From positions 32,001-96,000 of the IMG/VR virus record IMGVR_UViG_3300031578_000004: DNA of 64,000 nucleotides; one strand, given 5' to 3'. This stretch comes from a virus. The position numbers and the translations under genes were made by a program. Of this stretch, positions 44,658-57,412 are shown piece after piece (within the stretch, counting starts at the first letter, position 1; each line of letters opens with the position of its first letter). The notes under the pieces are model-generated. The model was not told where the DNA came from, did no database searches, and saw only the letters and a list, made by a program, of their open reading frames with translations.

Positions 44658-45640
44658 TTTTTTACCCTCCCTTTTCTTTGTACCATTAATTCCTAAGTTC
44701 TGCATTATCAATTAAAGTCCTTTAATAATTATGAACTGGATTGACTTATTTTCTAATTTAATAGTTACCATTAAAACTCATTATAATTTATCTAACCAAT
44801 TAAAACAATCTTAACCAATAAAAAACCATTCCCCATACTAAAACAAAATCCCACCCATAACAATCCCTCACCATATCCTCTCCGAATTACAATCTATTCC
44901 CACAGCCACTTTTACCCACTTTACCTATAAACACCTTACTCACTATATAAATGTCTCAAACTTACTTTAAATTAACCATATCAAACTAAATATAAAAAAC
45001 ATTTAAACACCCACTGTTTACACCTCACACTTAACACACTATACTGTTTAGTCTATAACCTTAACACGCAAATTAACCGCAATTCAAACACAAATCTATC
45101 CACAAAACAAAAGGATGCTCTCAAACACCCTCACAAATCACATCACATTTATACCCTTAATTTTAATTCCAAGGTAACTTATCAACAAAACCCATAACCT
45201 TATCTAACCAAATCCCAAACCCAAACAATACACTAATAATACTTTCCACATTATAATTACTTAAATACACCATTATAAATCTTCTATTTTTCTTTAAATT
45301 TCTCATATTTTACCTCACTTTTAAAGAATTTTTACATATAATTAAAGTATTTTACTAAAATCTAACCAATACCATTTTATTAACATTTTGGTATATTATT
45401 GTTTTTTAGGAATTTTTTTATTAGATATTTATTTTTTATTCTCTTTAGCATATAATGTATTTGAGGTGAATATTTATGTTAAGTCAGAGAAGATAAATAA
45501 TTCAAAATATAAGTAGCAAAATTATTATTTGTCATTTATTATTTGAGGATTTGGTTGTGGATAACTTTGTCAATATTTGTGACAGTTTTATATTTTAATC
45601 GAATTTTAAAACATTAAACAAATAATATAAAAATAATTTA

Positions 45641-45668
45641 TTGACAAGGTAGAAATGCGTGATATACT
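45641..45668 (+). promoter_or_regulatory. sigmaA-type promoter, 16-bp spacer
   Basis: TTGACA-AGGTAGAAATGCGTGA-TATACT. Confidence 0.65.
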
Positions 45669-47849: not shown

Positions 47850-48812
47850 GTGACAAAAAACAAGTATTTTTCAAAAATACCAAACAACTTATTTTATCTA
47901 AAAAGTAAAAAAAGTATATTTAAAATAACAAATGATTATAATGTTTTGTTTGTATTGGATTATCTCTATACTAATACAAATAGGAGAAATCAAACTTTAT
48001 TTACAATAGAAGATATTGTTAGGTATTGTGGACTTAAACCAGATGCTCACAGAGGTAAGAGTAATAATAGAATAAAAAGTATTGTAATAATGTTAAAGGA
48101 ACTAAATTTAATTAATGATGATACAGATTATAGTCTGTTGGGAACTAAAGGTTATAAAAATGATAAAGATATATTATATACAAATCTAAACCTATTCAAG
48201 AAAAATAAAGAAGGTAATGATGTAGAGTTTGTATTATTAGAAGATAATGAAAGAAATAAGATTGTAAATACAGATACAAATCTTGATAAAACAAAACTAC
48301 TATTCTATTATTTGTATTTAAAATCAAGAATATATAAAAGAAATGCTGAAACAGAGGGAGATTTAATTATGAATGGTGGAAAATCTGAGTCAGCATATAT
48401 AAGTTTTGAAAAAATAAATGAGGATACTCTCCTTACAGCAGATACAATTAATAAATATAATGAAGTATTAGTGGATTTACATTTAATTAAATATGATAGA
48501 GCTGAACACTGGTATTATAAAAGTGACCCTAATAAAACCACTTATGAAAGTTGTAATGTTTATGTTTTATATAATAATGGTAATTTTAAAACCAATTTAA
48601 AAGAAGGTATAAAACAATATAAATTATTCTATTCAGAGAAAAGAGTGTTTACTAAAAATGAATATACTAACAATAATAGAAGAATTAATGGTAAAATAGG
48701 TAGATTATCTTATCTTGAGAGAATCGGTAAGGCTACTGAACAACAAATATTAGAGAAAAATGATTTAATTAAGTTGGTAGAATCTGAAAAGGAAAAGTAT
48801 CTAACAAAATAA
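47850..48812 (+). CDS. Putative replication initiator or winged-helix DNA-binding protein
   Basis: F.KIPN N-terminus, Y.YLKSR, HTH-like segments; GTG start after AGGAGG; repeats upstream. Confidence 0.45.
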   Translation: MTKNKYFSKIPNNLFYLKSKKSIFKITNDYNVLFVLDYLYTNTNRRNQTLFTIEDIVRYCGLKPDAHRGKSNNRIKSIVIMLKELNLINDDTDYSLLGTKGYKNDKDILYTNLNLFKKNKEGNDVEFVLLEDNERNKIVNTDTNLDKTKLLFYYLYLKSRIYKRNAETEGDLIMNGGKSESAYISFEKINEDTLLTADTINKYNEVLVDLHLIKYDRAEHWYYKSDPNKTTYESCNVYVLYNNGNFKTNLKEGIKQYKLFYSEKRVFTKNEYTNNNRRINGKIGRLSYLERIGKATEQQILEKNDLIKLVESEKEKYLTK

Positions 48813-48848
48813 TTTAACAAAAACTATAAAATTATTATTCAAACCCTA

Positions 48849-48876
48849 TTGACATACTCCAAACACGTGCTATAAT
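48849..48876 (+). promoter_or_regulatory. sigmaA-type promoter, 16-bp spacer
   Basis: TTGACA-TACTCCAAACACGTGC-TATAAT. Confidence 0.65.
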
Positions 48877-48993
48877 TAGTATATGGAGGTGATGATGATA
48901 ACGGAAACTTAGTGATTGCAACAAATGATTTATAGAAGTGTAAAGAACAAATAATATAAAAATAAACCAAACAACATAAAAGGAGAATTATAA

Positions 48994-50031
48994 ATGAAAT
49001 TATATAGTAATGAGATAGTTTTTAGAGGACATCCTGATAAGACTTGTGACCAAATAAGTGATGCATTATTGGATGCTTATTTAAAAGGGGATAAATATAC
49101 AAGAGCAGGAATTGAAGTAATGGGTGGTAAGGGTAAAATATTTGTCACAGGTGAGGTTACATCAAAAACAGAAGTAAATGTAGAAGAAGTAGTAAAAAGA
49201 GTTGTAAAAGAAATAGGTTACAATCCAGATAATTATGAAGTAATAGACAATATAGGTAAACAAAGTCCAGATATAGCACAAGGAGTAGACTTAGGTGGTG
49301 CTGGTGATAATGGTATGATGTTTGGTTATGCTTGTAATGAAACTATAGAATTATTACCTAAAGCTATGATAATACTTCAAAAATTAAGTCAATCATATAA
49401 TAATTTAACACATCTTTATATGTTTTTACCAGATGGTAAGGCTCAAATAACAGGTTATTATGATGATGATTTTAGATTAAAAAAGATAAAGACATTTACT
49501 ATATGTTATCAAAACACAGAAGACAATAGAGAATATACAGATAAGATAATTAAAAAATTAGCTTTGAGTATATGCAAAGAATATGAGATAGAAGTAGAAG
49601 AGTTTTTAATTAATCCTACTGGTAAGTTTTTAATTGGATTTTTTGAAGGAGATGCAGGTTTAACAGGTAGAAAAATAGTAGTAGATGCATATCAAAGTTT
49701 TGCAAATGTTGGCGGAGGAGCTTATTCAGGGAAAGATGGTACGAAAGTAGATAGAAGTGGAGCATATAAATCAAGACAAATAGCAAAGAGATATTTAATA
49801 AAACATAACCTTAAATGGTGTGAAGTACAATTAAGTTATGCAATAGGCAAGGCAGAACCATTGGCAATTTATATAGATAGTGATATAGGTAATTTAGATG
49901 CAGAAGATGGTTTATACCAAGAATGTATACCATCAAATATTATAAGAGAATTAGATTTAAGAGAACCGAAATTTGAGAAAACAGCTATGTATGGACATTA
50001 TGGTAATTCAGATTTTAGTTGGGAAATGTAA
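48994..50031 (+). CDS. metK: S-adenosylmethionine synthetase
   Basis: GHPDK.CDQISDA, QSPDIAQGV, GAGD.GMMFGYA, DGKAQ, GLTGRKI.VD, GGGAYSGKD. Confidence 0.95.
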   Translation: MKLYSNEIVFRGHPDKTCDQISDALLDAYLKGDKYTRAGIEVMGGKGKIFVTGEVTSKTEVNVEEVVKRVVKEIGYNPDNYEVIDNIGKQSPDIAQGVDLGGAGDNGMMFGYACNETIELLPKAMIILQKLSQSYNNLTHLYMFLPDGKAQITGYYDDDFRLKKIKTFTICYQNTEDNREYTDKIIKKLALSICKEYEIEVEEFLINPTGKFLIGFFEGDAGLTGRKIVVDAYQSFANVGGGAYSGKDGTKVDRSGAYKSRQIAKRYLIKHNLKWCEVQLSYAIGKAEPLAIYIDSDIGNLDAEDGLYQECIPSNIIRELDLREPKFEKTAMYGHYGNSDFSWEM

Positions 50032-50072
50032 AACAAATAATATAAAAATAAAATAATAAAGGAGAATAATTA

Positions 50073-50862
50073 TTGAGGTATTTTGGCGGAAAAGCAAAGA
50101 TTGCTAAAGATATAGCAAATTTTATTAATGGGAGGTTTCTATGCAATATTTCGGAGGAAAACAAAGGATTGCAAAACATATTGCAGAATGGCTTAACTCT
50201 ACACACACACACACACACACTATGTAGAACCTTTTTGCGGAGCGTGTAATGTTGCATCTAAAATACATATTAAAAATAAGATATTAAATGATAAAAATCC
50301 ATATTTAATTGAAATGTTTAAAGCAATTCAAAAAGGATGGATACCACCTACTTATGTATCTGAAGAAGATTATGCCAATGCAAAAAAGAATCAAGATAAT
50401 GAACCGCATATAGCAGGATTTGTTGGATTTGCTTGTAGCTTTGCAGGAAAGTTTTGGGGAGGATATGCTAGAGATAGTAAAGATGGTAGTGGAACTGGAA
50501 ATTATGCTTTGAGAGGTCATAATAGTATTTTAAAGAAGATGGAAATATTGATGGATGCACAATTTACATGTAAAGATTTTATGGAATTAGATTATGAAAA
50601 TTGTTTAATTTATTGCGACCCTCCATATAAGGGAACTACACCTTATTATAAAAAGATATTAGGAGAATTTCCATATGATAAGTTTTTAGAATGGGTTAAA
50701 GAACAAAGTAAGAATAATACAATAATAATTAGTGAATATAAACATAATGTTCCTAATGATGCATACATAGTTTTGGAAATACCATCAAAAACAAGTATAA
50801 GAGATAAAACTGGCAATGTAATTGAAACAATTGAGGTTTTATGGACTTATAATAATTTTTAA
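50073..50862 (+). CDS. Dam-family DNA adenine methylase, out of frame at an (AC)10 tract
   Basis: Two YFGGK N-termini (50073, 50141); YVEPFCGA..NDKN..IYCDPPY body in the third frame from 50221. Confidence 0.85.
50201..50220 (+). repeat. (AC)10 simple sequence repeat
   Basis: acacacacacacacacacac inside the methylase gene. Confidence 0.97.
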
Positions 50863-50916
50863 TACATAAAACAAATAATATAAAAATAAAATAACAAAAC
50901 GGAGGTAACAAAATAA

Positions 50917-51384
50917 ATGACAAACAACACAAACAATTCCACTTCCCCAGATTCCGACTCCCAAATAGAAGGTTTTAACCACACAGGTATACTACTACTA
51001 AAGCCTATGCAAAACAAAATAGAATATAGACTATATGACACAAAGATACCTTATCCTATATGTGTAGAGAATTGGGATGTAAATGAGAGTCTTGAATTAC
51101 ATACATATAAAAACACATCACAAGAAACATATATACATATTTCAAGCGGTAATGAATTAATATGTGAAGGTATAGGTAAATTGAATAAGTATGTTGAAAA
51201 TGGAGTAGATAAATATTATTTAATTACAGGAAAATATGTAGATTATATAGACCTTGAAAGAATCTTATTTAACTCAACAGAAAAAACAATTAATATAAAA
51301 ATAAACACATTCCACAACGAAGAAGTAATCGTAGATGAGAAAGGAAGTCAAGCAGATGAGTCAAGAGAAGAACAACAAAGTTAA
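50917..51384 (+). CDS. Hypothetical protein
   Basis: GGAGG RBS. Confidence 0.6.
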   Translation: MTNNTNNSTSPDSDSQIEGFNHTGILLLKPMQNKIEYRLYDTKIPYPICVENWDVNESLELHTYKNTSQETYIHISSGNELICEGIGKLNKYVENGVDKYYLITGKYVDYIDLERILFNSTEKTINIKINTFHNEEVIVDEKGSQADESREEQQS

Positions 51385-51553
51385 TACGGCTAAAAATGAA
51401 GGATACAGTGATGTTTATGAAAGTTGTAGTATTTGTGGTAGAGATATGAGCAATCCAAAATACATATTTGTAGAAGTAGATTCAGATTTATATATTTGTG
51501 CTATTTGTAAGAAAAAACATAATATTCATGCTGTACAATGTGCAGAGATATAG
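51335..51553 (+). CDS. Small zinc-finger protein
   Basis: CSICG...ICAIC. Confidence 0.55.
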   Translation: MRKEVKQMSQEKNNKVNTAKNEGYSDVYESCSICGRDMSNPKYIFVEVDSDLYICAICKKKHNIHAVQCAEI

Positions 51554-51749: not shown

Positions 51750-52337
51750 ATGACATGTATTATAGGTGTATTTGATAAAGAACAAAATTGTGTTTATATA
51801 GGAGCGGATAGTTTAGGTTCAAATGGATATAGTCAACAATTATTTAGAAATAAGAAAGTATTCAAAGCAACAGATAATTCAAATATAGTAATGGCTATTA
51901 GTGGAGATTATAAACTCTCTAATATATTGTCTATAGAGGATAAATTAGTTGAAGAGTTGAAAGAATTGAAAAACGAAGTTAATATTTCACATATTATTCA
52001 ATATACAGTTCCTAAAATAATTGACTCTGCTATGAAATATAGATGTTATAAGAATAGAGATGGGTATGTAAGTATTGAAGGAGATATTATATTTGCATAT
52101 AAAAATCAATTATATATAATAGAAAGTAATTTACAGGTTTTAGAGTCTGATGATGATTACTTAGCTAGTGGTTCGGGGAAACAATTCGCTATGGCAGTAC
52201 TTTCACAGAATAAAGATAAAAGTACCATAGATAGAATTAAAGAAGGTTTAGAGGCATCTGAGAAGCATGGTATTGGTATTAAAAGACCTTTTTATATTAT
52301 GAATACTAAAGATGATAAAGTTATTAAGATTGATTAA
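51750..52337 (+). CDS. HslV/proteasome-like Ntn-hydrolase protein
   Basis: N-terminal MTCIIG, GADS, NKKVF, ASGSG. Confidence 0.75.
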   Translation: MTCIIGVFDKEQNCVYIGADSLGSNGYSQQLFRNKKVFKATDNSNIVMAISGDYKLSNILSIEDKLVEELKELKNEVNISHIIQYTVPKIIDSAMKYRCYKNRDGYVSIEGDIIFAYKNQLYIIESNLQVLESDDDYLASGSGKQFAMAVLSQNKDKSTIDRIKEGLEASEKHGIGIKRPFYIMNTKDDKVIKID

Positions 52338-52776
52338 GATAAAATGCGAAATTGGTAGAAATATAAAAGAGGAAATTATGAATAAATCTAACAACATTAT
52401 ATATATAGTCGATATAGAAACATTTATAAAAGACTTCAGAAATTATGAAACAGGTAAAGAAATAATAGAACGTTTTACTCAAGGGTATTGCTATTGGTTT
52501 GCATACATATTAATTAATAGATTTCCAGACGGAGAAATTTATTATAATACCATGAACCATTTTGTTTTTAAATATAACAATAGACTTTATGATATTACAG
52601 GTGATTGCACTGATAAATGGGATAATGAGTATTTATATGATTGGAATGAATATCAGAAAAAGGAAAAAGATTCAGAGCATATTAAACTTTTAGAACATTG
52701 CTGTATTAATAAAAATTATTATTATCCATATGGCTCTTTGGAGTTGGAAAATAAATATCAAAAAACATATATATAA
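52312..52776 (+). CDS. Hypothetical phage protein
   Basis: F..G.CYWFA.IL...H......YDITG; probable start MNKSN. Confidence 0.65.
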   Translation: MIKLLRLIKIKCEIGRNIKEEIMNKSNNIIYIVDIETFIKDFRNYETGKEIIERFTQGYCYWFAYILINRFPDGEIYYNTMNHFVFKYNNRLYDITGDCTDKWDNEYLYDWNEYQKKEKDSEHIKLLEHCCINKNYYYPYGSLELENKYQKTYI

Positions 52777-53029: not shown

Positions 53030-53896
53030 ATAGAATTTGAAAAATATAAATTAATAAAGAGTCCACTTAATTATGTGGGTGGCAAATATAAACTACTTCC
53101 GCAGATACTCCCTTTATTTCCTGAAAATATAAATAGGTTTGTTGATTTATTCTGTGGAGGAGGAAATATAGGGGTTAATGTAAAGGCAAAACAAATTATT
53201 TGTAATGACTTTCAAAAAGAAGTAATAGAATTTTTAGATGCATGTAATAACACAGATAGTGAAGAAATGTTGTTAAAAATATTAGATATTGTTAATACAT
53301 ATAAGTTATCCAAAACTAATGCAGAAGGGTATTTAAAACTAAGAGAAGATTACAATAATGGACATAAATCTTGGCTGACTTTTTATTCTTTAATATGTCA
53401 CGCTTTTAACAACCAGATAAGATTTAATTCTAAGGGTAATTACAATATGCCTTTTGGGAAAGATAGAAGTAGTTTTAATCCAACACTACAAAAGAAGTTC
53501 ATTAATTTTGTTGATGAATTAAAAAAGAAAAATATAAAATTTATAAATAAAGACTTTAGAAAATTACCTTTTGATAAATTAAATTCCAATGATTTTGTAT
53601 ACGCAGACCCTCCGTATTTGATTACTTGTGCAAGTTATAATGAAAATGATGGTTGGAATGAGAAACACGAAAGAGATTTAATTAGTTTACTAGATAAATT
53701 AAATAAGCAGGGAGTTAAATTTGCTTTAAGCAATGTGTTAGAAGATAAAGGTAAATCTAATGATATATTAAAAGAATGGGTAATTAAATATAATATTAAT
53801 CATTTAAATCATACATATGGGAATTGTAATTATCAAGCAAAAGATAAAAGCAAAGATGGAACGGTTGAAGTTTTAATTACAAATTATAAATATTGA
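53030..53896 (+). CDS. Dam-family DNA adenine methylase
   Basis: KSPLNYVGGK, FVDLFCGG, RFNSKG.YNMPFG, YADPPY, FALSN, EVLITNY; likely ATA start after AAGGAGG. Confidence 0.9.
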   Translation: MEFEKYKLIKSPLNYVGGKYKLLPQILPLFPENINRFVDLFCGGGNIGVNVKAKQIICNDFQKEVIEFLDACNNTDSEEMLLKILDIVNTYKLSKTNAEGYLKLREDYNNGHKSWLTFYSLICHAFNNQIRFNSKGNYNMPFGKDRSSFNPTLQKKFINFVDELKKKNIKFINKDFRKLPFDKLNSNDFVYADPPYLITCASYNENDGWNEKHERDLISLLDKLNKQGVKFALSNVLEDKGKSNDILKEWVIKYNINHLNHTYGNCNYQAKDKSKDGTVEVLITNYKY

Positions 53897-54694: not shown

Positions 54695-57412
54695 TTGAAG
54701 AAAGAAAATGCATACATAATGAATTTAGAATCTGCTTATATATATAAAGATATTCAAGAAAATAAAAAGATAACCATTAAAAATAGAGATTTAACAAAAT
54801 TATTTTCAGCCACAATACCTTATAGTTTGGAAACTATTAGAATGAATAATATGTTTTCTGATACTTTTTATACAATAAAAAACAGTGGAAAACAATATAC
54901 TACAAAAATTATAAATGTCACTTTTGATAAAAACTATACTATATGGGATGACATAAATAAAAAAAGAATTACTTTAACTAATAAGAAAAAAATTAGAAAA
55001 CATCTATATGACAATGGATTTGTGATGGATGATGTGAAATATATTTTTTATAAAAGGGGAGCAGGAAAAGCTAAAAATGGTTACGCTTTCTATATTCAAG
55101 AAGATATGAGGGATAAATTAATCAATAGAAGTAGGTTAAATTTAAAATTTGAGAAAGATGAACTTCTTGATTTAACTTCACTTTTAGCTTATGAATCTTT
55201 AATTTCATCAAGTATAGATTTTACAATTAACTTAAATCCCTTAACAGAAATCCTATTAATAGATGATATATATGGGTTAGAGTTTGAAAGTCTTGCTAGT
55301 GTCACCAGAGAGCAAAATAAACACGTATCTACTCAGAATGAAACTTTAATTTTACAGAACTACTTAACAGATGGGCAGGGACTTCTTGATGAGTCAGTTT
55401 TTAAACAATATGATAAATCAGATAAAGGATTTATGCTTTTAAGAAGTGATATGTTTAAAGATTGTGGATTTAATACTAAGTTACAAGTATGGTTTAAGTA
55501 TAATAATATAGATACTCTAACAGATATGTTTGGAAATATATATGAAGCAAATAAAATAAAATTAGTAATTACCCCTAATTCATTAAAGTTCTTAAAGTTT
55601 GCTTATAAATTTACAAAAACAAAGACAATGGAAGAATATAATAATTTAAATAAAGAAGAACAAATAAAAGTAAAAAAAGAATGCTATGACTATTGGAAAA
55701 ACAATATTGATGATATGTTTGGTGTAGTTAAATGTGACAAAGAAGGTAATTATGGTAATTATAATAGAACTACATATCAAGTTTTAAATAGTATACCTAA
55801 TTTAACGTATGCAGAATTAATGGAAATTACGGAAATTGAAAGAGAATATGTAATGCTATTGAAGAACGATTTTGCTGTATTTAGAAACTATTTAGGCTGT
55901 GATGCTAAAACAAGTTTAAAATTAGAAAAGAAGTTAGAAGAAGGGGATATTAGTTTATATGAAAATACAGACTTAATAAATGCACTACTGTTGGTTAATT
56001 CAGATATTCAATATACCACAAAGTTTAAAAAGATAAAAAGTGATTTGATTGCTAATTATATTACTCATTTAAAAGAAGGCAAGATAAGAATGAAAGATTC
56101 TAAATATGTAACGTTAGTTTCTAATCCTTATGAGATGCTTTTAGCTTCAATAGGTAAATATAATAATAAGTCAATTATGAGTGGTAGGGAGGTATATTGT
56201 AAATATTATCAAGATGGTCAAAACTTTTGTGCCACAAGAAATCCTCATATTAATTCAGGAAATTTGATGCACACCACAAATAGATATCATGAAGAATATG
56301 AGGATTGGTTTAATTTAACTGATAATATTTGTGCAATAAACTTTTTTGATAATGATGCTCCAGATAGACTTCAGGGGTGTGACACCGATTCTGACACAAT
56401 TCTGCTAAATTCGAGTACCATATTGTCGAATAAAGCCAAATATTGTGAAGAGAACTTTCCTACTCCTATAAATAGAGTCGAAGGTAATTCAAAACCTAGA
56501 AAAAATAATATGACTGAATTACATAAATTAGATATTATATTGAGTGATAATTACATAGGTAGAATAGTTAATATGTCTCAAATAATTAATTCGTATTTAA
56601 ATGATGCTATTTCAAAAAGTAAGTCTAATGAGATAATAGATGAATTATATCAAGCAAGTAGTAAGCTATCAAGTATGAGTCAAATTGAAATAGATAAAAG
56701 TAAAAAGGTTTTTGATAATATTAAAATGAATAAAGAATTAGGAAAAATGAGAAATATTAGTTCTATAAGGTATGTTGAAGAAAAAGATAAGTTTGAAAAT
56801 ATGGTTAAGAAAATGGTAGTTCCTAATTTTTTTAATATGATTTCAGACTCTAATGATTACAGGGTGTTTGAGAAGTTTAATACCCCTTTAGATATATTAC
56901 AAGATATATTAGTGTTTAAGCACTCTGATTATAAGAAAGGAACAAAGAATATAGAATTAGTTGATTTATTAGTTAAGTCAAAAGAATTAGATGGAATATA
57001 TCAAATAAATAGTGCATTAGCTATATGTAAAATAATTGAGGATTGTGGAAAAAAGATAAATGGATTAAAGCTTAAAACATGTACATTGAATGATAAAGCT
57101 AAAAAAACCGTTGAGAGAAAATCTAAAAAAGAAGCTATTGAAAAATTAAAAAAATTAACCCCAAATGATGCAACGATTTTATCAATATTAAAACAAAGTT
57201 TTGGTAAAAAAGAAGATGATAGACTTGGATTTAAAAAATATAGTATGTTAACTTTAAATTTATTATTTATTTCTAAAAAAATTCAAGTGCTAAAATGTTT
57301 TAAAAACAATAATATGGCTATGGATGAAGTGTTGATAAAAATAAAAGATGAATATGATTTTAATATCTTTGGAGAAAATTATCAAAAGATGTTAAGAAAA
57401 GAAATTTTATAA
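54695..57412 (+). CDS. yonO: Single-subunit two-barrel RNA polymerase (SPbeta YonO-like)
   Basis: TDGQG, LR..FK, RNPH, LQGCDTDSD metal loop, IG.I.N, ID..K; 905 aa. Confidence 0.8.
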   Translation: MKKENAYIMNLESAYIYKDIQENKKITIKNRDLTKLFSATIPYSLETIRMNNMFSDTFYTIKNSGKQYTTKIINVTFDKNYTIWDDINKKRITLTNKKKIRKHLYDNGFVMDDVKYIFYKRGAGKAKNGYAFYIQEDMRDKLINRSRLNLKFEKDELLDLTSLLAYESLISSSIDFTINLNPLTEILLIDDIYGLEFESLASVTREQNKHVSTQNETLILQNYLTDGQGLLDESVFKQYDKSDKGFMLLRSDMFKDCGFNTKLQVWFKYNNIDTLTDMFGNIYEANKIKLVITPNSLKFLKFAYKFTKTKTMEEYNNLNKEEQIKVKKECYDYWKNNIDDMFGVVKCDKEGNYGNYNRTTYQVLNSIPNLTYAELMEITEIEREYVMLLKNDFAVFRNYLGCDAKTSLKLEKKLEEGDISLYENTDLINALLLVNSDIQYTTKFKKIKSDLIANYITHLKEGKIRMKDSKYVTLVSNPYEMLLASIGKYNNKSIMSGREVYCKYYQDGQNFCATRNPHINSGNLMHTTNRYHEEYEDWFNLTDNICAINFFDNDAPDRLQGCDTDSDTILLNSSTILSNKAKYCEENFPTPINRVEGNSKPRKNNMTELHKLDIILSDNYIGRIVNMSQIINSYLNDAISKSKSNEIIDELYQASSKLSSMSQIEIDKSKKVFDNIKMNKELGKMRNISSIRYVEEKDKFENMVKKMVVPNFFNMISDSNDYRVFEKFNTPLDILQDILVFKHSDYKKGTKNIELVDLLVKSKELDGIYQINSALAICKIIEDCGKKINGLKLKTCTLNDKAKKTVERKSKKEAIEKLKKLTPNDATILSILKQSFGKKEDDRLGFKKYSMLTLNLLFISKKIQVLKCFKNNNMAMDEVLIKIKDEYDFNIFGENYQKMLRKEIL

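What the first reader, a model, noticed from the sequence alone, without database searches (positions are those of the whole stretch)
50073..50862. Three-state phase-variable Dam methylase with two duplicated N-termini in different frames
Seen: two homologous starts, each with its own RBS: TTG 50073 (MRYFGGKAKIAKDIANFIN) and ATG 50141 (MQYFGGKQRIAKHIAEWLN). They lie in different frames and both are open up to the (AC)10 tract at 50201-50220. The catalytic body (YVEPFCGA...DPPY) starts at 50221 in the third frame. With 10 units both starts hit stops (OFF); 9 units fuse start 2 to the body; 11 units fuse start 1 through a longer linker. Established: SSR slippage switches bacterial methylases on and off. 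Inference: the duplication makes two of three tract-length classes ON, a tuned bet-hedge between methylation-blocked and methylation-dependent restriction.
Basis: partly seen in the sequence, partly recalled or inferred. Interest (0 to 1): 0.82.

Follow-up and report, generated by a model that had tools for sequence, protein, structure and literature searches.

The report
Three-state repeat switch on phage methylase
A large uncultured phage keeps a DNA adenine methylase gene behind a slippery (AC)10 repeat and two out-of-frame copies of the enzyme's essential first 19 codons, so that gaining or losing one repeat unit should give a short enzyme, a long enzyme or none, a design that related phages carry in all three states.

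Summary
TTG 50073 and ATG 50141 open two homologous YFGGK N-termini in different frames. Both run through (AC)10 at 50201-50220, and the D12 methylase body (50221-50862) lies in the third frame. Resizing the tract in a script fuses N2 at 9 units, N1 at 11 and neither at 10.

In 31 related metagenomic loci with two N-termini:
- the N1-N2 spacing takes six lengths, all 2 mod 3, in 29 of 31;
- the N1 frame stays open across N2 in 29 of 31, against 2 of 31 for the third frame;
- all three states occur: 14 OFF, 10 N2-ON, 7 N1-ON.

N1 is under the same purifying selection as N2 (pN/pS 0.21 and 0.20; 1.7 and 2.5 when the same DNA is read in shifted frames). State shows no signal on the gene tree.

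Distant homologues in Clostridia carry the same design with poly-G, (AG)n, (AT)n or (GACA)n tracts.

Not shown: switching within a population (only contigs were available), enzyme activity, target site, and the bet-hedging rationale.

This scan noted the same design before on other DNA. Six literature searches found no published description.

The parts
50058..50064 (+). Shine-Dalgarno-like AAAGGAG, 8 nt before the N1 start
   Evidence: Read. An AGGAG-type box 8-10 nt before the N1 start position is kept in relatives.
50073..50129 (+). N1: first copy of the methylase N-terminus (TTG start, RYFGGKAKIAKDIANFIN), frame 0
   Evidence: Pooled pN/pS is 0.21 over 31 loci, against 1.7 and 2.5 for the same DNA in shifted frames.
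50073..50249 (+). N1 open frame as it stands with 10 units (58 aa plus stop). It reads through N2 in another frame, through the tract, and stops 29 nt into the body
   Evidence: At 8, 11 or 14 units this frame continues into the whole body.
50130..50135 (+). Shine-Dalgarno-like GGGAGG, 5 nt before the N2 start
   Evidence: Read.
50141..50197 (+). N2: second copy of the N-terminus (ATG start, QYFGGKQRIAKHIAEWLN), frame 2
   Evidence: It matches phrog_56 positions 66-88 (E 0.0023), directly before the body's match at positions 90-322. pN/pS is 0.20.
50194..50196 (+). TAA that closes the body's frame just 5' of the tract, so the body has no start of its own
   Evidence: The same stop is present in L002.
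50201..50220 (+). (AC)10 tract. It reads Thr-His in all three frames, so it has no stop in any frame
   Evidence: Close relatives carry 7 to 23 AC units, or 8 and 11 AG units.
50221..50862 (+). Catalytic body of a D12-class N6-adenine DNA methyltransferase, frame 1. Motif I EPFCGA is at 50227-50244 and DPPY at 50617-50628
   Evidence: PF02086, 53.2 bits (cut-off 22). phrog_56 'DNA methyltransferase', E 1.3e-30.
50031..50056 (+). 26-nt intergenic motif 42 nt before the N1 start. An identical copy lies at 50869-50894, after the gene's stop. Promoter-like; function not shown
   Evidence: 5 matches with up to 3 mismatches, all on the + strand. Four lie 42-94 nt before + strand ORF starts and the fifth (62077) lies 151 nt before one. 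0 matches in 100 shuffles.
48994..50031 (+). Phage S-adenosylmethionine synthetase gene directly upstream, same strand
   Evidence: PF00438, PF02772 and PF02773 all above their cut-offs.
53075..53896 (+). Second, uninterrupted D12 methyltransferase of the phage, in the Dam subfamily
   Evidence: PF02086, 138.6 bits. TIGR00571, 164.8 bits against a cut-off of 114.85. It shares only motif-level similarity with the switched enzyme.

Best explanation
This is a contingency locus in a phage genome. The gene encodes an orphan D12-class DNA adenine methyltransferase.

How it is built:
- The coding sequence is interrupted, in the loop between the N-terminal helix (YFGGK, motif X) and the SAM-binding motif I, by a dinucleotide repeat that has no stop codon in any frame.
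- Upstream lie two copies of the ribosome-binding site plus the first 19 codons, offset by 2 mod 3. Each copy is in a different frame from the other and from the body.

How it should work:
- Slipped-strand mispairing during replication adds or removes AC units, 2 nt per step.
- One length class joins the proximal copy N2 to the body, giving a short enzyme of about 239 aa.
- The next class joins the distal copy N1, giving a long enzyme of about 263 aa. In it, the N2 region read out of frame becomes a disordered loop of about 26 residues.
- The third class joins neither. The window's allele, with 10 units, is this OFF state.
- From OFF, a slip in either direction turns the gene ON.
- The two starts often differ in strength (TTG against ATG here; ATA, ATC or ATT against ATG in many relatives), so the two ON states probably differ in enzyme level.

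Shown: the anatomy, its conservation, selection on both N-termini, and natural alleles in all three states.

Inferred: that slippage happens at a useful rate in the phage, that both fused enzymes are active, and that the benefit lies in facing hosts with opposite restriction systems.
For: Anatomy and frame arithmetic.

Family: PF02086 and phrog_56.

Census of the window plus 32 non-duplicate close loci, 31 of them with two N-termini:
- N1-N2 spacing is 65, 68, 77, 80, 83 or 86 nt, which is 2 mod 3, in 29 of 31.
- The N1 frame is open across the N2 region in 29 of 31. The third frame is open in 2 of 31, and those are the same two exceptions.
- States: 14 OFF, 10 N2-ON and 7 N1-ON, plus 2 single-N-terminus loci that are ON.

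Selection:
- pN/pS is 0.209 for N1 and 0.200 for N2. The N1 DNA read in shifted frames gives 1.69 and 2.50.
- Within the 15 loci whose N1 starts with an Ile codon, pN/pS is still 0.17, against 1.3 and 3.1 in shifted frames.

Tract behaviour:
- Tract length ranges from 7 to 23 units.
- The state changes 16 times on a 31-tip gene tree. Shuffled labels average 14.5 changes, and 281 of 300 shuffles give 16 or fewer. Seven sister pairs differ in state.

Called proteins, best 120 of 1885 homologues:
- 23 are long N1-type fusions;
- 32 are short fusions with a TH or RE repeat;
- 31 lack motif I by the script's pattern. Most are truncated calls; five (P0012, P0014-P0017) begin at motif I itself.

Individual alleles:
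- L037 has an interrupted tract and sits in N1-ON.

Structure:
- In the AlphaFold model of the N1-fused relative P0028, the N1 helix (residues 8-23) has pLDDT about 93 and the linker (26-51) is below 50.
- The model aligns to EcoDam, T4Dam and Mcbe1 from residue 1-3 onward, with Z 17-19.
- The N2-fused control P0004 gives the same helix.

More distant homologues (82 loci scored): a repeat before motif I goes with two N-terminal motifs in 24 of 29 loci. Without a repeat, two motifs occur in 2 of 53.
Against: - No within-population length variation could be measured. All four runs are kept as contigs. The two that span the tract show 10 units and may be the source. The third run's contigs stop on either side of the tract, but the tool itself skips repeats there.
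- All seven locus pairs with 100% identical bodies have identical tract lengths. Upstream identity could be scored, and was also 100%, in six of them. Many of these pairs may be the same contig filed twice.
- N1 is not always intact. L013 and L024 have GRK and GEK in place of GGK, L023 has lost N1 by deletion, and L034 and L035 have N1 out of register by 1 nt.
- Many N1 copies sit at ATA, ATC or ATT rather than a canonical start (13, 1 and 1 of 15), so the N1-ON state may give little protein.
- The AlphaFold support is weak as a test, because the alignment supplied places N1 on the family's N-terminus.
- No activity, target site or phenotype is known.
Confidence: 0.75

Rival explanations
1. 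Two-state switch with a relic. Only the proximal N-terminus (N2) gives an active enzyme. N1 is a decaying duplicate, so two of the three tract classes are OFF.
For: - N1 carries GRK or GEK instead of GGK in L013 and L024, is deleted in L023, and is out of register in L034 and L035.
- N1 sits at an Ile codon in 15 loci.
- The N1 fusion adds a disordered loop of about 26 residues.
Against: - N1 pN/pS is 0.21, the same as N2, and 0.17 even in the clade with an Ile codon at the start.
- The spacing varies only in steps of 3, with six lengths, in 29 of 31 loci, and the N1 frame is kept open across N2 in 29 of 31 while the third frame is closed in 29 of 31.
- L037 has an interrupted tract in the N1-ON state.
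- A repeat and a doubled N-terminus occur together in distant homologues, 24 of 29 against 2 of 53.
Confidence: 0.12
2. Recoding rather than mutation. The tract is a site of ribosomal or RNA-polymerase slippage by 2 nt, where re-pairing on ACA/CAC is perfect. Every allele, including the 10-unit one, would then make some full-length enzyme, and the tract would set a ratio of products rather than ON or OFF.
For: - The sequence allows exact re-pairing 2 nt away (read).
- Loci with identical flanks have identical tract lengths, so the DNA tract is not wildly unstable at the consensus level.
Against: - Tract length differs between close relatives, for example 12 against 10 units at 96.7% body identity (L030 and L031).
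- All three phases occur without preference. This is what a mutational switch gives, whereas a fixed recoding signal would be expected to hold one phase.
- Relatives use poly-G, AG, AT and GACA tracts, which share hypermutability but not a recoding mechanism.
- I did not look for a stimulatory RNA structure.
Confidence: 0.07
3. Dead gene or assembly artefact in this phage. The 10-unit tract is a miscount or a pseudogenising slip, and the gene has no role here.
For: - The window comes from a metagenomic virus record.
- The allele is out of frame with both starts.
- The phage has a second, intact Dam-family methylase.
Against: - Two runs give 10 units at depth 12.5 and 24.8, although they may be the source.
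- The 20-nt tract is well within read length.
- The body has no other stop over 213 codons, and it is 81-86% identical to the relatives' bodies, which are intact where the contig covers them.
- 14 of 31 relatives are in the same OFF phase with otherwise intact parts.
Confidence: 0.05

Closest known systems
Phase-variable DNA methyltransferases of bacteria (phasevarions: Type III mod, Type I hsdM/hsdS, Type IIG cj0031)
   Same: A simple sequence repeat inside a methyltransferase reading frame changes length by slippage and moves the gene in and out of frame, so methylation varies heritably between siblings. I saw only search listings and abstracts for PMC5909438, PMC7383803 and PMC4889913. I read passages of two reviews, PMC13076061 and PMC12707154.
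   Different: - Those genes are cellular, belong to restriction-modification loci, and are described as ON/OFF switches.
- Here the enzyme is a small orphan D12 (Type II-like) methylase in a phage.
- The repeat sits inside the catalytic domain, between motif X and motif I.
- A second, frame-shifted copy of the essential N-terminus makes two of the three phases productive.
licA (lic1) CAAT translational switch of Haemophilus influenzae
   Same: A repeat near the 5' end of the reading frame, with initiation codons in two of the three frames, so two repeat classes express the gene and one does not. I read passages and a figure legend of PMC2212159.
   Different: - In licA only start codons are supplied in two frames. 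The residues before the repeat are not a conserved functional motif.
- Here a whole 19-codon functional segment with its own ribosome-binding site is duplicated, and one copy is read through the other.
- licA is a choline kinase gene in a bacterial chromosome with a tetranucleotide repeat.
EcoDam, T4 Dam, DpnM and Mcbe1 (solved Dam-family structures)
   Same: The model of the relative P0028 aligns over 202-216 residues to EcoDam, T4 Dam and Mcbe1 (Z 17-19, rmsd 2.6-3.8 A) and over 208 residues to DpnM (Z 15.1), starting at the N-terminal helix. It has the same motif order: N-terminal motif X, FxGxG, DPPY.
   Different: - Sequence identity is 17-22%.
- phmmer with P0004 finds no PDB chain at E up to 0.001.
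- The TIGR00571 cut-off is not met.
- The target site is unknown.
- None of these known enzymes, as far as I recall, has a repeat or a doubled N-terminus.
Earlier notes of this scan on other genomes (e1-5334995, e1-5950248, e1-2902255)
   Same: A Dam-like phage or prophage methylase with two alternative N-termini in different frames before a slippery tract, with relatives found in all three states. My saw such poly-G, double poly-G and (AG)n loci independently.
   Different: Those notes concern poly-G or (AG)n tracts in gut and rumen phages. This window is the (AC)n form, in a phage record of at least 130 kb held by runs labelled soil metagenome, with an adjacent SAM synthetase gene.

Membership tests
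D12-class N6-adenine DNA methyltransferase (Pfam PF02086) | Profile match above Pfam's gathering score | tested here: met
   Body alone: 53.2 bits against a cut-off of 22. Full-length relatives P0004 and P0028: 72.2 and 57.9 bits.
D12-class N6-adenine DNA methyltransferase (Pfam PF02086) | Motif order: N-terminal motif X (YxGGK), motif I (FxGxG), motif IV (DPPY) | tested here: met
   YFGGK occurs twice, EPFCGA is at 50227-50244 and DPPY at 50617-50628. The motif names are recalled, not taken from a call.
D12-class N6-adenine DNA methyltransferase (Pfam PF02086) | Dam-like fold | tested here: met
   This was tested on a relative, not the window's own product. The P0028 model (pLDDT 83.9) against EcoDam, T4Dam and Mcbe1 gives Z 17-19.
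D12-class N6-adenine DNA methyltransferase (Pfam PF02086) | Methylates adenine N6 in DNA | not testable with these tools
   No assay or methylome data.
Dam subfamily (NCBIfam TIGR00571; GATC methylases) | Score at or above the curated cut-off of 114.85 bits | tested here: not met
   P0004 scores 62.4 bits and P0028 scores 52.8 bits. The phage's other methylase (53075-53896) scores 164.8 bits.
Dam subfamily (NCBIfam TIGR00571; GATC methylases) | GATC specificity | not testable with these tools
   The target site is unknown.
Repeat-driven phase-variable (contingency) gene | Simple sequence repeat inside the reading frame, far longer than chance gives | tested here: met
   (AC)10 is the only dinucleotide array in 64 kb, and an (AC)7 word occurs in 0 of 100 shuffles.
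Repeat-driven phase-variable (contingency) gene | Repeat number differs between related genomes and moves the gene in and out of frame | tested here: met
   7 to 23 units among relatives. States are 14 OFF, 10 N2-ON and 7 N1-ON in 31 loci. State shows no signal on the tree.
Repeat-driven phase-variable (contingency) gene | Reversible, high-frequency length change within one population | tested here: inconclusive
Repeat-driven phase-variable (contingency) gene | Expression or phenotype follows repeat number | not testable with these tools
   Needs cloned alleles or methylome reads.
Phasevarion (phase-variable Mod/HsdM of a Type III or Type I restriction-modification system controlling a regulon) | The methyltransferase belongs to a Type III or Type I system with res or hsdR/hsdS partners | tested here: not met
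   The enzyme is a D12 Type II-like methylase of about 240 aa. Its neighbours are a SAM synthetase, three or more ORFs with no family match, an HslV-like peptidase and a YunG-like protein, with no Pfam or PHROG restriction-enzyme or specificity-subunit hit among the nine neighbouring or related translations scanned.
Phasevarion (phase-variable Mod/HsdM of a Type III or Type I restriction-modification system controlling a regulon) | Switching changes expression of a set of genes | not testable with these tools
   No expression data.
Multi-start translational switch (licA type) | Initiation sites in two of the three frames upstream of the repeat | tested here: met
   TTG 50073 (frame 0) and ATG 50141 (frame 2), each with a ribosome-binding site. 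The third frame is closed.
Multi-start translational switch (licA type) | Both in-frame classes give functional product | not testable with these tools
   Supported only indirectly, by selection on N1 and by natural N1-fused proteins.

The most novel reading that the evidence does not exclude
The two ON states are not redundant. The pair of N-termini would form a heritable three-level 'dimmer' (high, low, none) for phage DNA methylation. The level would be set by start codons of different strength, including genuine AUA, AUC and AUU initiation kept by selection. The design would have been assembled repeatedly or maintained for a very long time, with whatever repeat suits the genome's base composition ((AC)n, (AG)n, (AT)n, (GACA)n, poly-G, sometimes two tracts). 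That would make it a general, undescribed strategy of phages and prophages of Clostridia for varying their epigenetic identity.
Probability: 0.35. Interest if true: 0.82.

Novelty: new variant of a known kind. Interest (0 to 1): 0.7.

Why it matters
Repeat-driven switching of methyltransferases is known from bacterial pathogens as an ON/OFF device.

If this reading holds, three things follow:
- Phages use the same trick on their own orphan methylases.
- Evolution solved the 'only one frame in three is ON' limit by duplicating an essential protein segment in a second frame and reading one copy through the other. This is a compact example of overlapping coding kept by selection.
- The design is widespread. 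It appears in dozens of uncultured large phages here and, with other repeats, in prophage-like loci of gut and rumen Clostridia.

It offers a directly testable model for how a phage population keeps both methylated and unmethylated progeny. It also bears on annotation, because gene callers split or truncate these genes: 37 of the best 120 called homologues lack the N-terminal YFGGK segment. Finally, it bears on reading phage methylomes and host range.

Tried and rejected
Close relatives in deposited phage genomes: none found. blastn gave one 66-nt match. tblastn gave 230 records, all below 60% identity.

Species-representative bacterial genomes: no relative above about 51% identity. The host of this clade therefore stays unknown. 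I did not pursue a host assignment.

Read-level heterogeneity:
- The look-up of sequencing runs gave 4 runs, all kept as contigs.
- Laying them showed no insertion or deletion rows.
- In run X3 a contig ends at 50192 and the next begins at 50230. The tool says it skips repeats at 50193-50229, so I draw nothing from this gap.
- Run X4 held only a small share of the words, at under 95% likeness. I draw nothing from it about habitat or strain.

phmmer of P0004 against PDB sequences: no match at E up to 0.001. The fold search was needed instead.

Sigma-70 promoter and terminator scan of 48800-51500: 14 promoter-like sites against 18.7 expected. The only notable one is a 12-of-12 consensus site before the SAM synthetase gene. 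There is no terminator between the genes.

Considered and set aside:
- N1 as a leader peptide or separate small protein. Its first 19 codons are homologous to motif X and are under the same selection as N2.
- A trans-acting split enzyme. The body has no start codon before motif I.
- One polypeptide carrying both N-termini through two successive frameshifts. There is no support in this clade. However, L111, L119 and L130, which have two G tracts, do have N1, N2 and the body in one frame.

I did not resolve whether the duplication arose once or several times. The 19-residue segments are too short to tell.

Supplementary files of papers were not opened. The surveys of repeat-bearing methyltransferases (PMC5909438, PMC7383803) may list Type II or orphan enzymes in supplements that I could not see.
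Full report
WHAT IS THERE

The window is bases 32001-96000 of a 130,358-base linear virus record, estimated 78% complete, with about 28% G+C.

- AAAGGAG, 8 nt, then TTG 50073 opens M/L-RYFGGKAKIAKDIANFIN (N1, frame 0).
- GGGAGG, 5 nt, then ATG 50141 opens MQYFGGKQRIAKHIAEWLN (N2, frame 2).
- (AC)10 occupies 50201-50220.
- From 50221 the third frame reads YVEPFCGA...DPPY... for 213 codons, to the stop ending at 50862.
- The body's frame is closed by TAA at 50194-50196. It has no start codon until a Met 31 codons in, past the SAM-binding motif I.

The tract is the only dinucleotide array among 99 rows from Tandem Repeats Finder. An (AC)7 word occurs in 0 of 100 shuffles. (AC)n reads Thr-His in every frame, so it cannot introduce a stop.

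Resizing the tract in a script gave the following:
- N2 fused to the complete body at 6, 9, 12 and 15 units (237-243 aa);
- N1 fused at 8, 11 and 14 units (261-265 aa);
- neither fused at 7, 10 and 13 units.

The window's allele is therefore in the OFF class.

WHAT THE GENE IS

The body matches Pfam PF02086 (D12-class N6-adenine DNA methyltransferase) with 53.2 bits against a cut-off of 22. It matches phrog_56 'DNA methyltransferase' at profile positions 90-322. The 28-residue N2 peptive matches the same PHROG at positions 66-88, directly in front.

The close full-length relatives P0004 and P0028 do not reach NCBIfam's Dam subfamily cut-off. They score 62.4 and 52.8 bits against 114.85, while the phage's other, uninterrupted methylase at 53075-53896 scores 164.8. 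The two enzymes share only motif-level similarity. I therefore call the switched enzyme Dam-like, with unknown target site.

The gene follows a phage S-adenosylmethionine synthetase gene (48994-50031) on the same strand, with no terminator-like site between them. None of the nine neighbouring or related translations scanned matched a restriction-enzyme or specificity-subunit family, so the enzyme is an orphan.

RELATIVES

Deposited phage genomes hold nothing close. Uncultured sequence does.
- A protein scan and a pattern scan of IMG/VR gave four contigs.
- A scan of metagenome contigs gave 470 relatives, of which the best 80 were returned.
- A protein search gave 1885 homologues at E up to 1e-20, of which the best 120 were listed.

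All loci with 58% or more body identity that have enough upstream sequence carry a dinucleotide tract at the same point, except L040. Nearly all of them have two N-termini.

Before the census I dropped these rows:
- exact duplicates: L004, L005, L007, L019, L020, L021, L029 and L032;
- loci with no or too little upstream sequence: L011 and L044;
- L036, in which no body start was found;
- L040, a single-N-terminus locus with no tract.

This left the window plus 32 loci. L027 and L028 are near-duplicates and both stayed in. Thirty-one of the 33 have two N-termini.

IS N1 REAL?

Four results say that it is.

1. The N1-to-N2 distance takes six different values (65, 68, 77, 80, 83, 86 nt) and is 2 mod 3 in 29 of 31 loci. 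Insertions and deletions between the copies have therefore been accepted only in multiples of three.

2. The N1 frame is open across the whole N2 region in 29 of 31 loci. The third frame is open in 2 of 31. Those two are L034 and L035, the loci in which N1 is 1 nt out of register.

3. Pooled over 465 pairs, pN/pS for N1 codons 2-20 is 0.209, against 0.200 for N2 and 0.354 for the first 100 body codons (ungapped, approximate). The same N1 DNA read in the other two frames gives 1.69 and 2.50.

4. Among the 120 listed proteins, 23 are long N1-type fusions, 20 of them with a TH or RE repeat. They read MRYFGGK..., then CNISEENK-like residues (N2 read in N1's frame), then (TH)n-YVEPF. Another 32 are short fusions with a repeat. 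Twenty-eight are short with no repeat; these are the more distant ones. Thirty-one lack motif I by the script's pattern. Most of those start inside the body, but five (P0012, P0014-P0017) begin at motif I itself, and two (P0106, P0117) are full-length proteins with a divergent motif I. Six start in the linker or at the body.

P0078 has an N1-plus-linker almost identical to the window's.

STATES IN NATURE

The 31 two-headed loci split into 14 OFF, 10 N2-ON and 7 N1-ON. The N1-ON loci are L008, L014, L016, L024, L033, L037 and L042. The 2 single-headed loci are ON. By my own arithmetic this is not distinguishable from thirds (chi-square about 2.4 on 2 degrees of freedom).

Tracts run from 7 to 23 AC units. 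L017, L018 and L021 have (AG)8 or (AG)11 instead.

On a maximum-likelihood tree of the body DNA (31 tips plus L040 as outgroup; L055 was left out as too short), the state changes 16 times. Labels shuffled 300 times give a mean of 14.5 changes (range 11-18), and 281 shuffles give 16 or fewer. State therefore carries no phylogenetic signal. Seven sister pairs differ in state. This is what a fast switch predicts at this sampling depth.

EVIDENCE AGAINST A VERY UNSTABLE TRACT

All seven locus pairs with 100% identical bodies have the same tract length. Upstream identity could be scored in six of them and was also 100%. Several of these pairs are probably one contig held in two collections.

The informative near-pairs are:
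- L017 and L018: 99.7% body identity, 8 against 11 units, same phase;
- L030 and L031: 96.7% body identity, 12 against 10 units, N2-ON against OFF.

READS

Four runs hold the stretch or part of it, all as contigs.
- Two span it with 10 units at word depth 12.5 and 24.8. They may be the source of this DNA.
- In a third run the contigs stop at 50192 and resume at 50230. The tool states that it skips repeats there.

DECAY AND VARIANTS

- L023 has lost N1 by a clean deletion and remains N2-ON.
- L013 and L024 have GRK and GEK for GGK in N1.
- L015 has an 8-nt duplication just after the tract.
- L037 has an interrupted tract (ACACACGCACACACAC) and sits in N1-ON. This looks like a locked long form.
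- L035 carries a run of 8 G between its two N-termini.

START CODONS

The pair is TTG/ATG in the window.
- Across the 31 loci, 9 are ATG/ATG.
- Twenty have ATA, ATC or ATT at one or both start positions.
- In the 15-locus clade with an Ile codon at N1 (13 ATA, 1 ATC, 1 ATT), an AGGAG-type box is kept 8-10 nt upstream in most loci.
- In L015 and L024 the frame is closed by a stop three codons upstream. L006 has no canonical start before its upstream stop. Several others have an in-frame GTG or TTG, but it overlaps the ribosome-binding site.
- N1 pN/pS in this clade is still 0.17, against 1.3 and 3.1 in shifted frames.

I infer weak, non-canonical initiation, and hence that the two ON states differ in enzyme level. 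This is not shown.

STRUCTURE

An AlphaFold2 model of the N1-fused relative P0028 (78% identical to the window's body; 67-row alignment) has:
- mean pLDDT 83.9;
- an N-terminal helix at residues 8-23 with pLDDT about 93;
- a linker at residues 26-51 with pLDDT below 50.

VIA-align places the model on Mcbe1, EcoDam and T4 Dam with Z 17-19 (rmsd 2.6-3.8 A, 202-216 residues). The alignment starts at model residues 1-3 against chain residues 4-9, so N1 takes the family's normal N-terminal position and the out-of-frame N2 region loops out.

The N2-fused control P0004 gives pLDDT 89.6 and the same helix at residues 8-21.

The alignment that I supplied aligns N1 with other N-termini. This is therefore a plausibility check, not an independent test.

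THE DESIGN IS GENERAL

Among 82 more distant homologues with at least 200 nt of upstream sequence (7 further loci were not scored; loci L040-L134 less the close ones):
- 29 have a repeat within 30 nt before motif I, and 24 of those have two N-terminal motifs;
- of the 53 without a repeat, 2 have two motifs, 49 have one and 2 have none.

These counts are not phylogenetically independent.

The repeats are (GACA)7, (AT)8-9, (AG)6-16 and G7-11. Some loci have two G tracts, one after each N-terminus. Three of them are isolate genomes by their record titles: Ruminococcus sp. YE282, Flintibacter muris DSM 110149 and Acutalibacter caecimuris M00118.

This scan had already noted the poly-G, double poly-G and (AG)11 forms on other DNA. 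I reached the same loci independently before reading those notes.

MECHANISM AND ITS RIVALS

The best reading (0.75) is a three-state contingency switch, as set out under Best explanation.

A consequence of the geometry, by arithmetic:
- from OFF, a slip of one unit in either direction gives an ON state;
- from either ON state, one direction gives OFF and the other gives the other ON state.

The rivals are:
- a two-state switch with a relic N1 (0.12);
- recoding by 2-nt ribosomal or transcriptional slippage (0.07);
- a dead gene or an assembly miscount (0.05).

The adjacent SAM synthetase and the second, constitutive methylase fit a phage that invests in methylation. Nothing here tests that purpose.

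COMPARISON WITH WHAT IS KNOWN, AND NOVELTY

Repeat-driven switching of methyltransferases is established for Type III, Type I and Type IIG systems of bacteria. I saw abstracts and listings and review passages.

A repeat switch with start codons in two of three frames is established for licA (passages of PMC2212159).

Six full-text searches returned no paper describing:
- a D12 orphan methylase switched by a repeat between motif X and motif I;
- a duplicated out-of-frame N-terminus;
- a phage-borne repeat-switched methylase.

The library lacks most subscription journals, and supplements were closed, so this is absence in what I could search.

I class the finding as a new variant of a known kind. 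Interest is 0.70.

Noticed in passing
window 45616-45641, 48945-48970, 50031-50056, 50869-50894, 62077-62102 (+ strand): A 26-nt A/T-rich motif (AAACAAATAATATAAAAATAAAATAA) occurs five times with up to 3 mismatches, always on the + strand. Four copies lie 42-94 nt before + strand ORF starts and the fifth lies 151 nt before one. Two identical copies bracket the methylase gene. It does not occur in 100 shuffles. It could be a phage promoter or a gene-boundary element.
   Followed up: partly
window 48849-48876 (+): A perfect extended sigma-70 consensus (TTGACA, 16 nt, TG, TATAAT) lies before the SAM synthetase gene. It is the only 12-of-12 site in 48800-51500. SAM synthetase and the switched methylase may be co-transcribed.
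   Followed up: no
window 48994-50031 (+): A phage-encoded S-adenosylmethionine synthetase (all three MetK domains) lies directly upstream of the switched methylase, and a second methylase lies 2.2 kb downstream. Together they look like a methylation module.
   Followed up: partly
L006, L009, L010, L012-L016, L024, L025, L027, L041, L042, L055, L002 (N1 start position); L003, L006, L012, L017, L018, L023, L038 (N2 start position): ATA, ATC or ATT stands at the start position behind a well-placed ribosome-binding site, while the downstream codons stay under purifying selection. In two loci a stop lies 3 codons upstream. These are candidates for genuine AUA, AUC or AUU initiation.
   Followed up: partly
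L111, L116, L119, L121, L122, L124, L127, L130 (about 150 nt upstream of the match start, i.e. up to position 1500 in each locus): Distant homologues in Clostridia genomes have two poly-G tracts, one after each N-terminus. In L111, L119 and L130, N1, N2 and the body are all in one frame, giving a 'double-headed' product.
   Followed up: partly
L035 about 430-450: A run of 8 G lies between the two N-termini of an (AC)10-type locus, and N1 is 1 nt out of register. This is either a second switch or an assembly error.
   Followed up: no
L023 about 1400-1425; L015 about 1490-1500; L037 about 700-719: Three natural variants of the switch: a clean deletion of N1 (L023), an 8-nt duplication just after the tract (L015), and an interrupted tract in the N1-ON phase (L037).
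   Followed up: partly
window 51750-52337 and 52312-52776 (+): An HslV/proteasome-like peptidase (PF00227; phrog_1040) and a YunG-like phage protein (PF24591) are encoded in overlapping ORFs between the two methylase genes.
   Followed up: no
window 54695-57412 (+): A 905-aa ORF has no Pfam match but a strong match to phrog_8308 (unknown function, E 4e-81). I did not test that.
   Followed up: no
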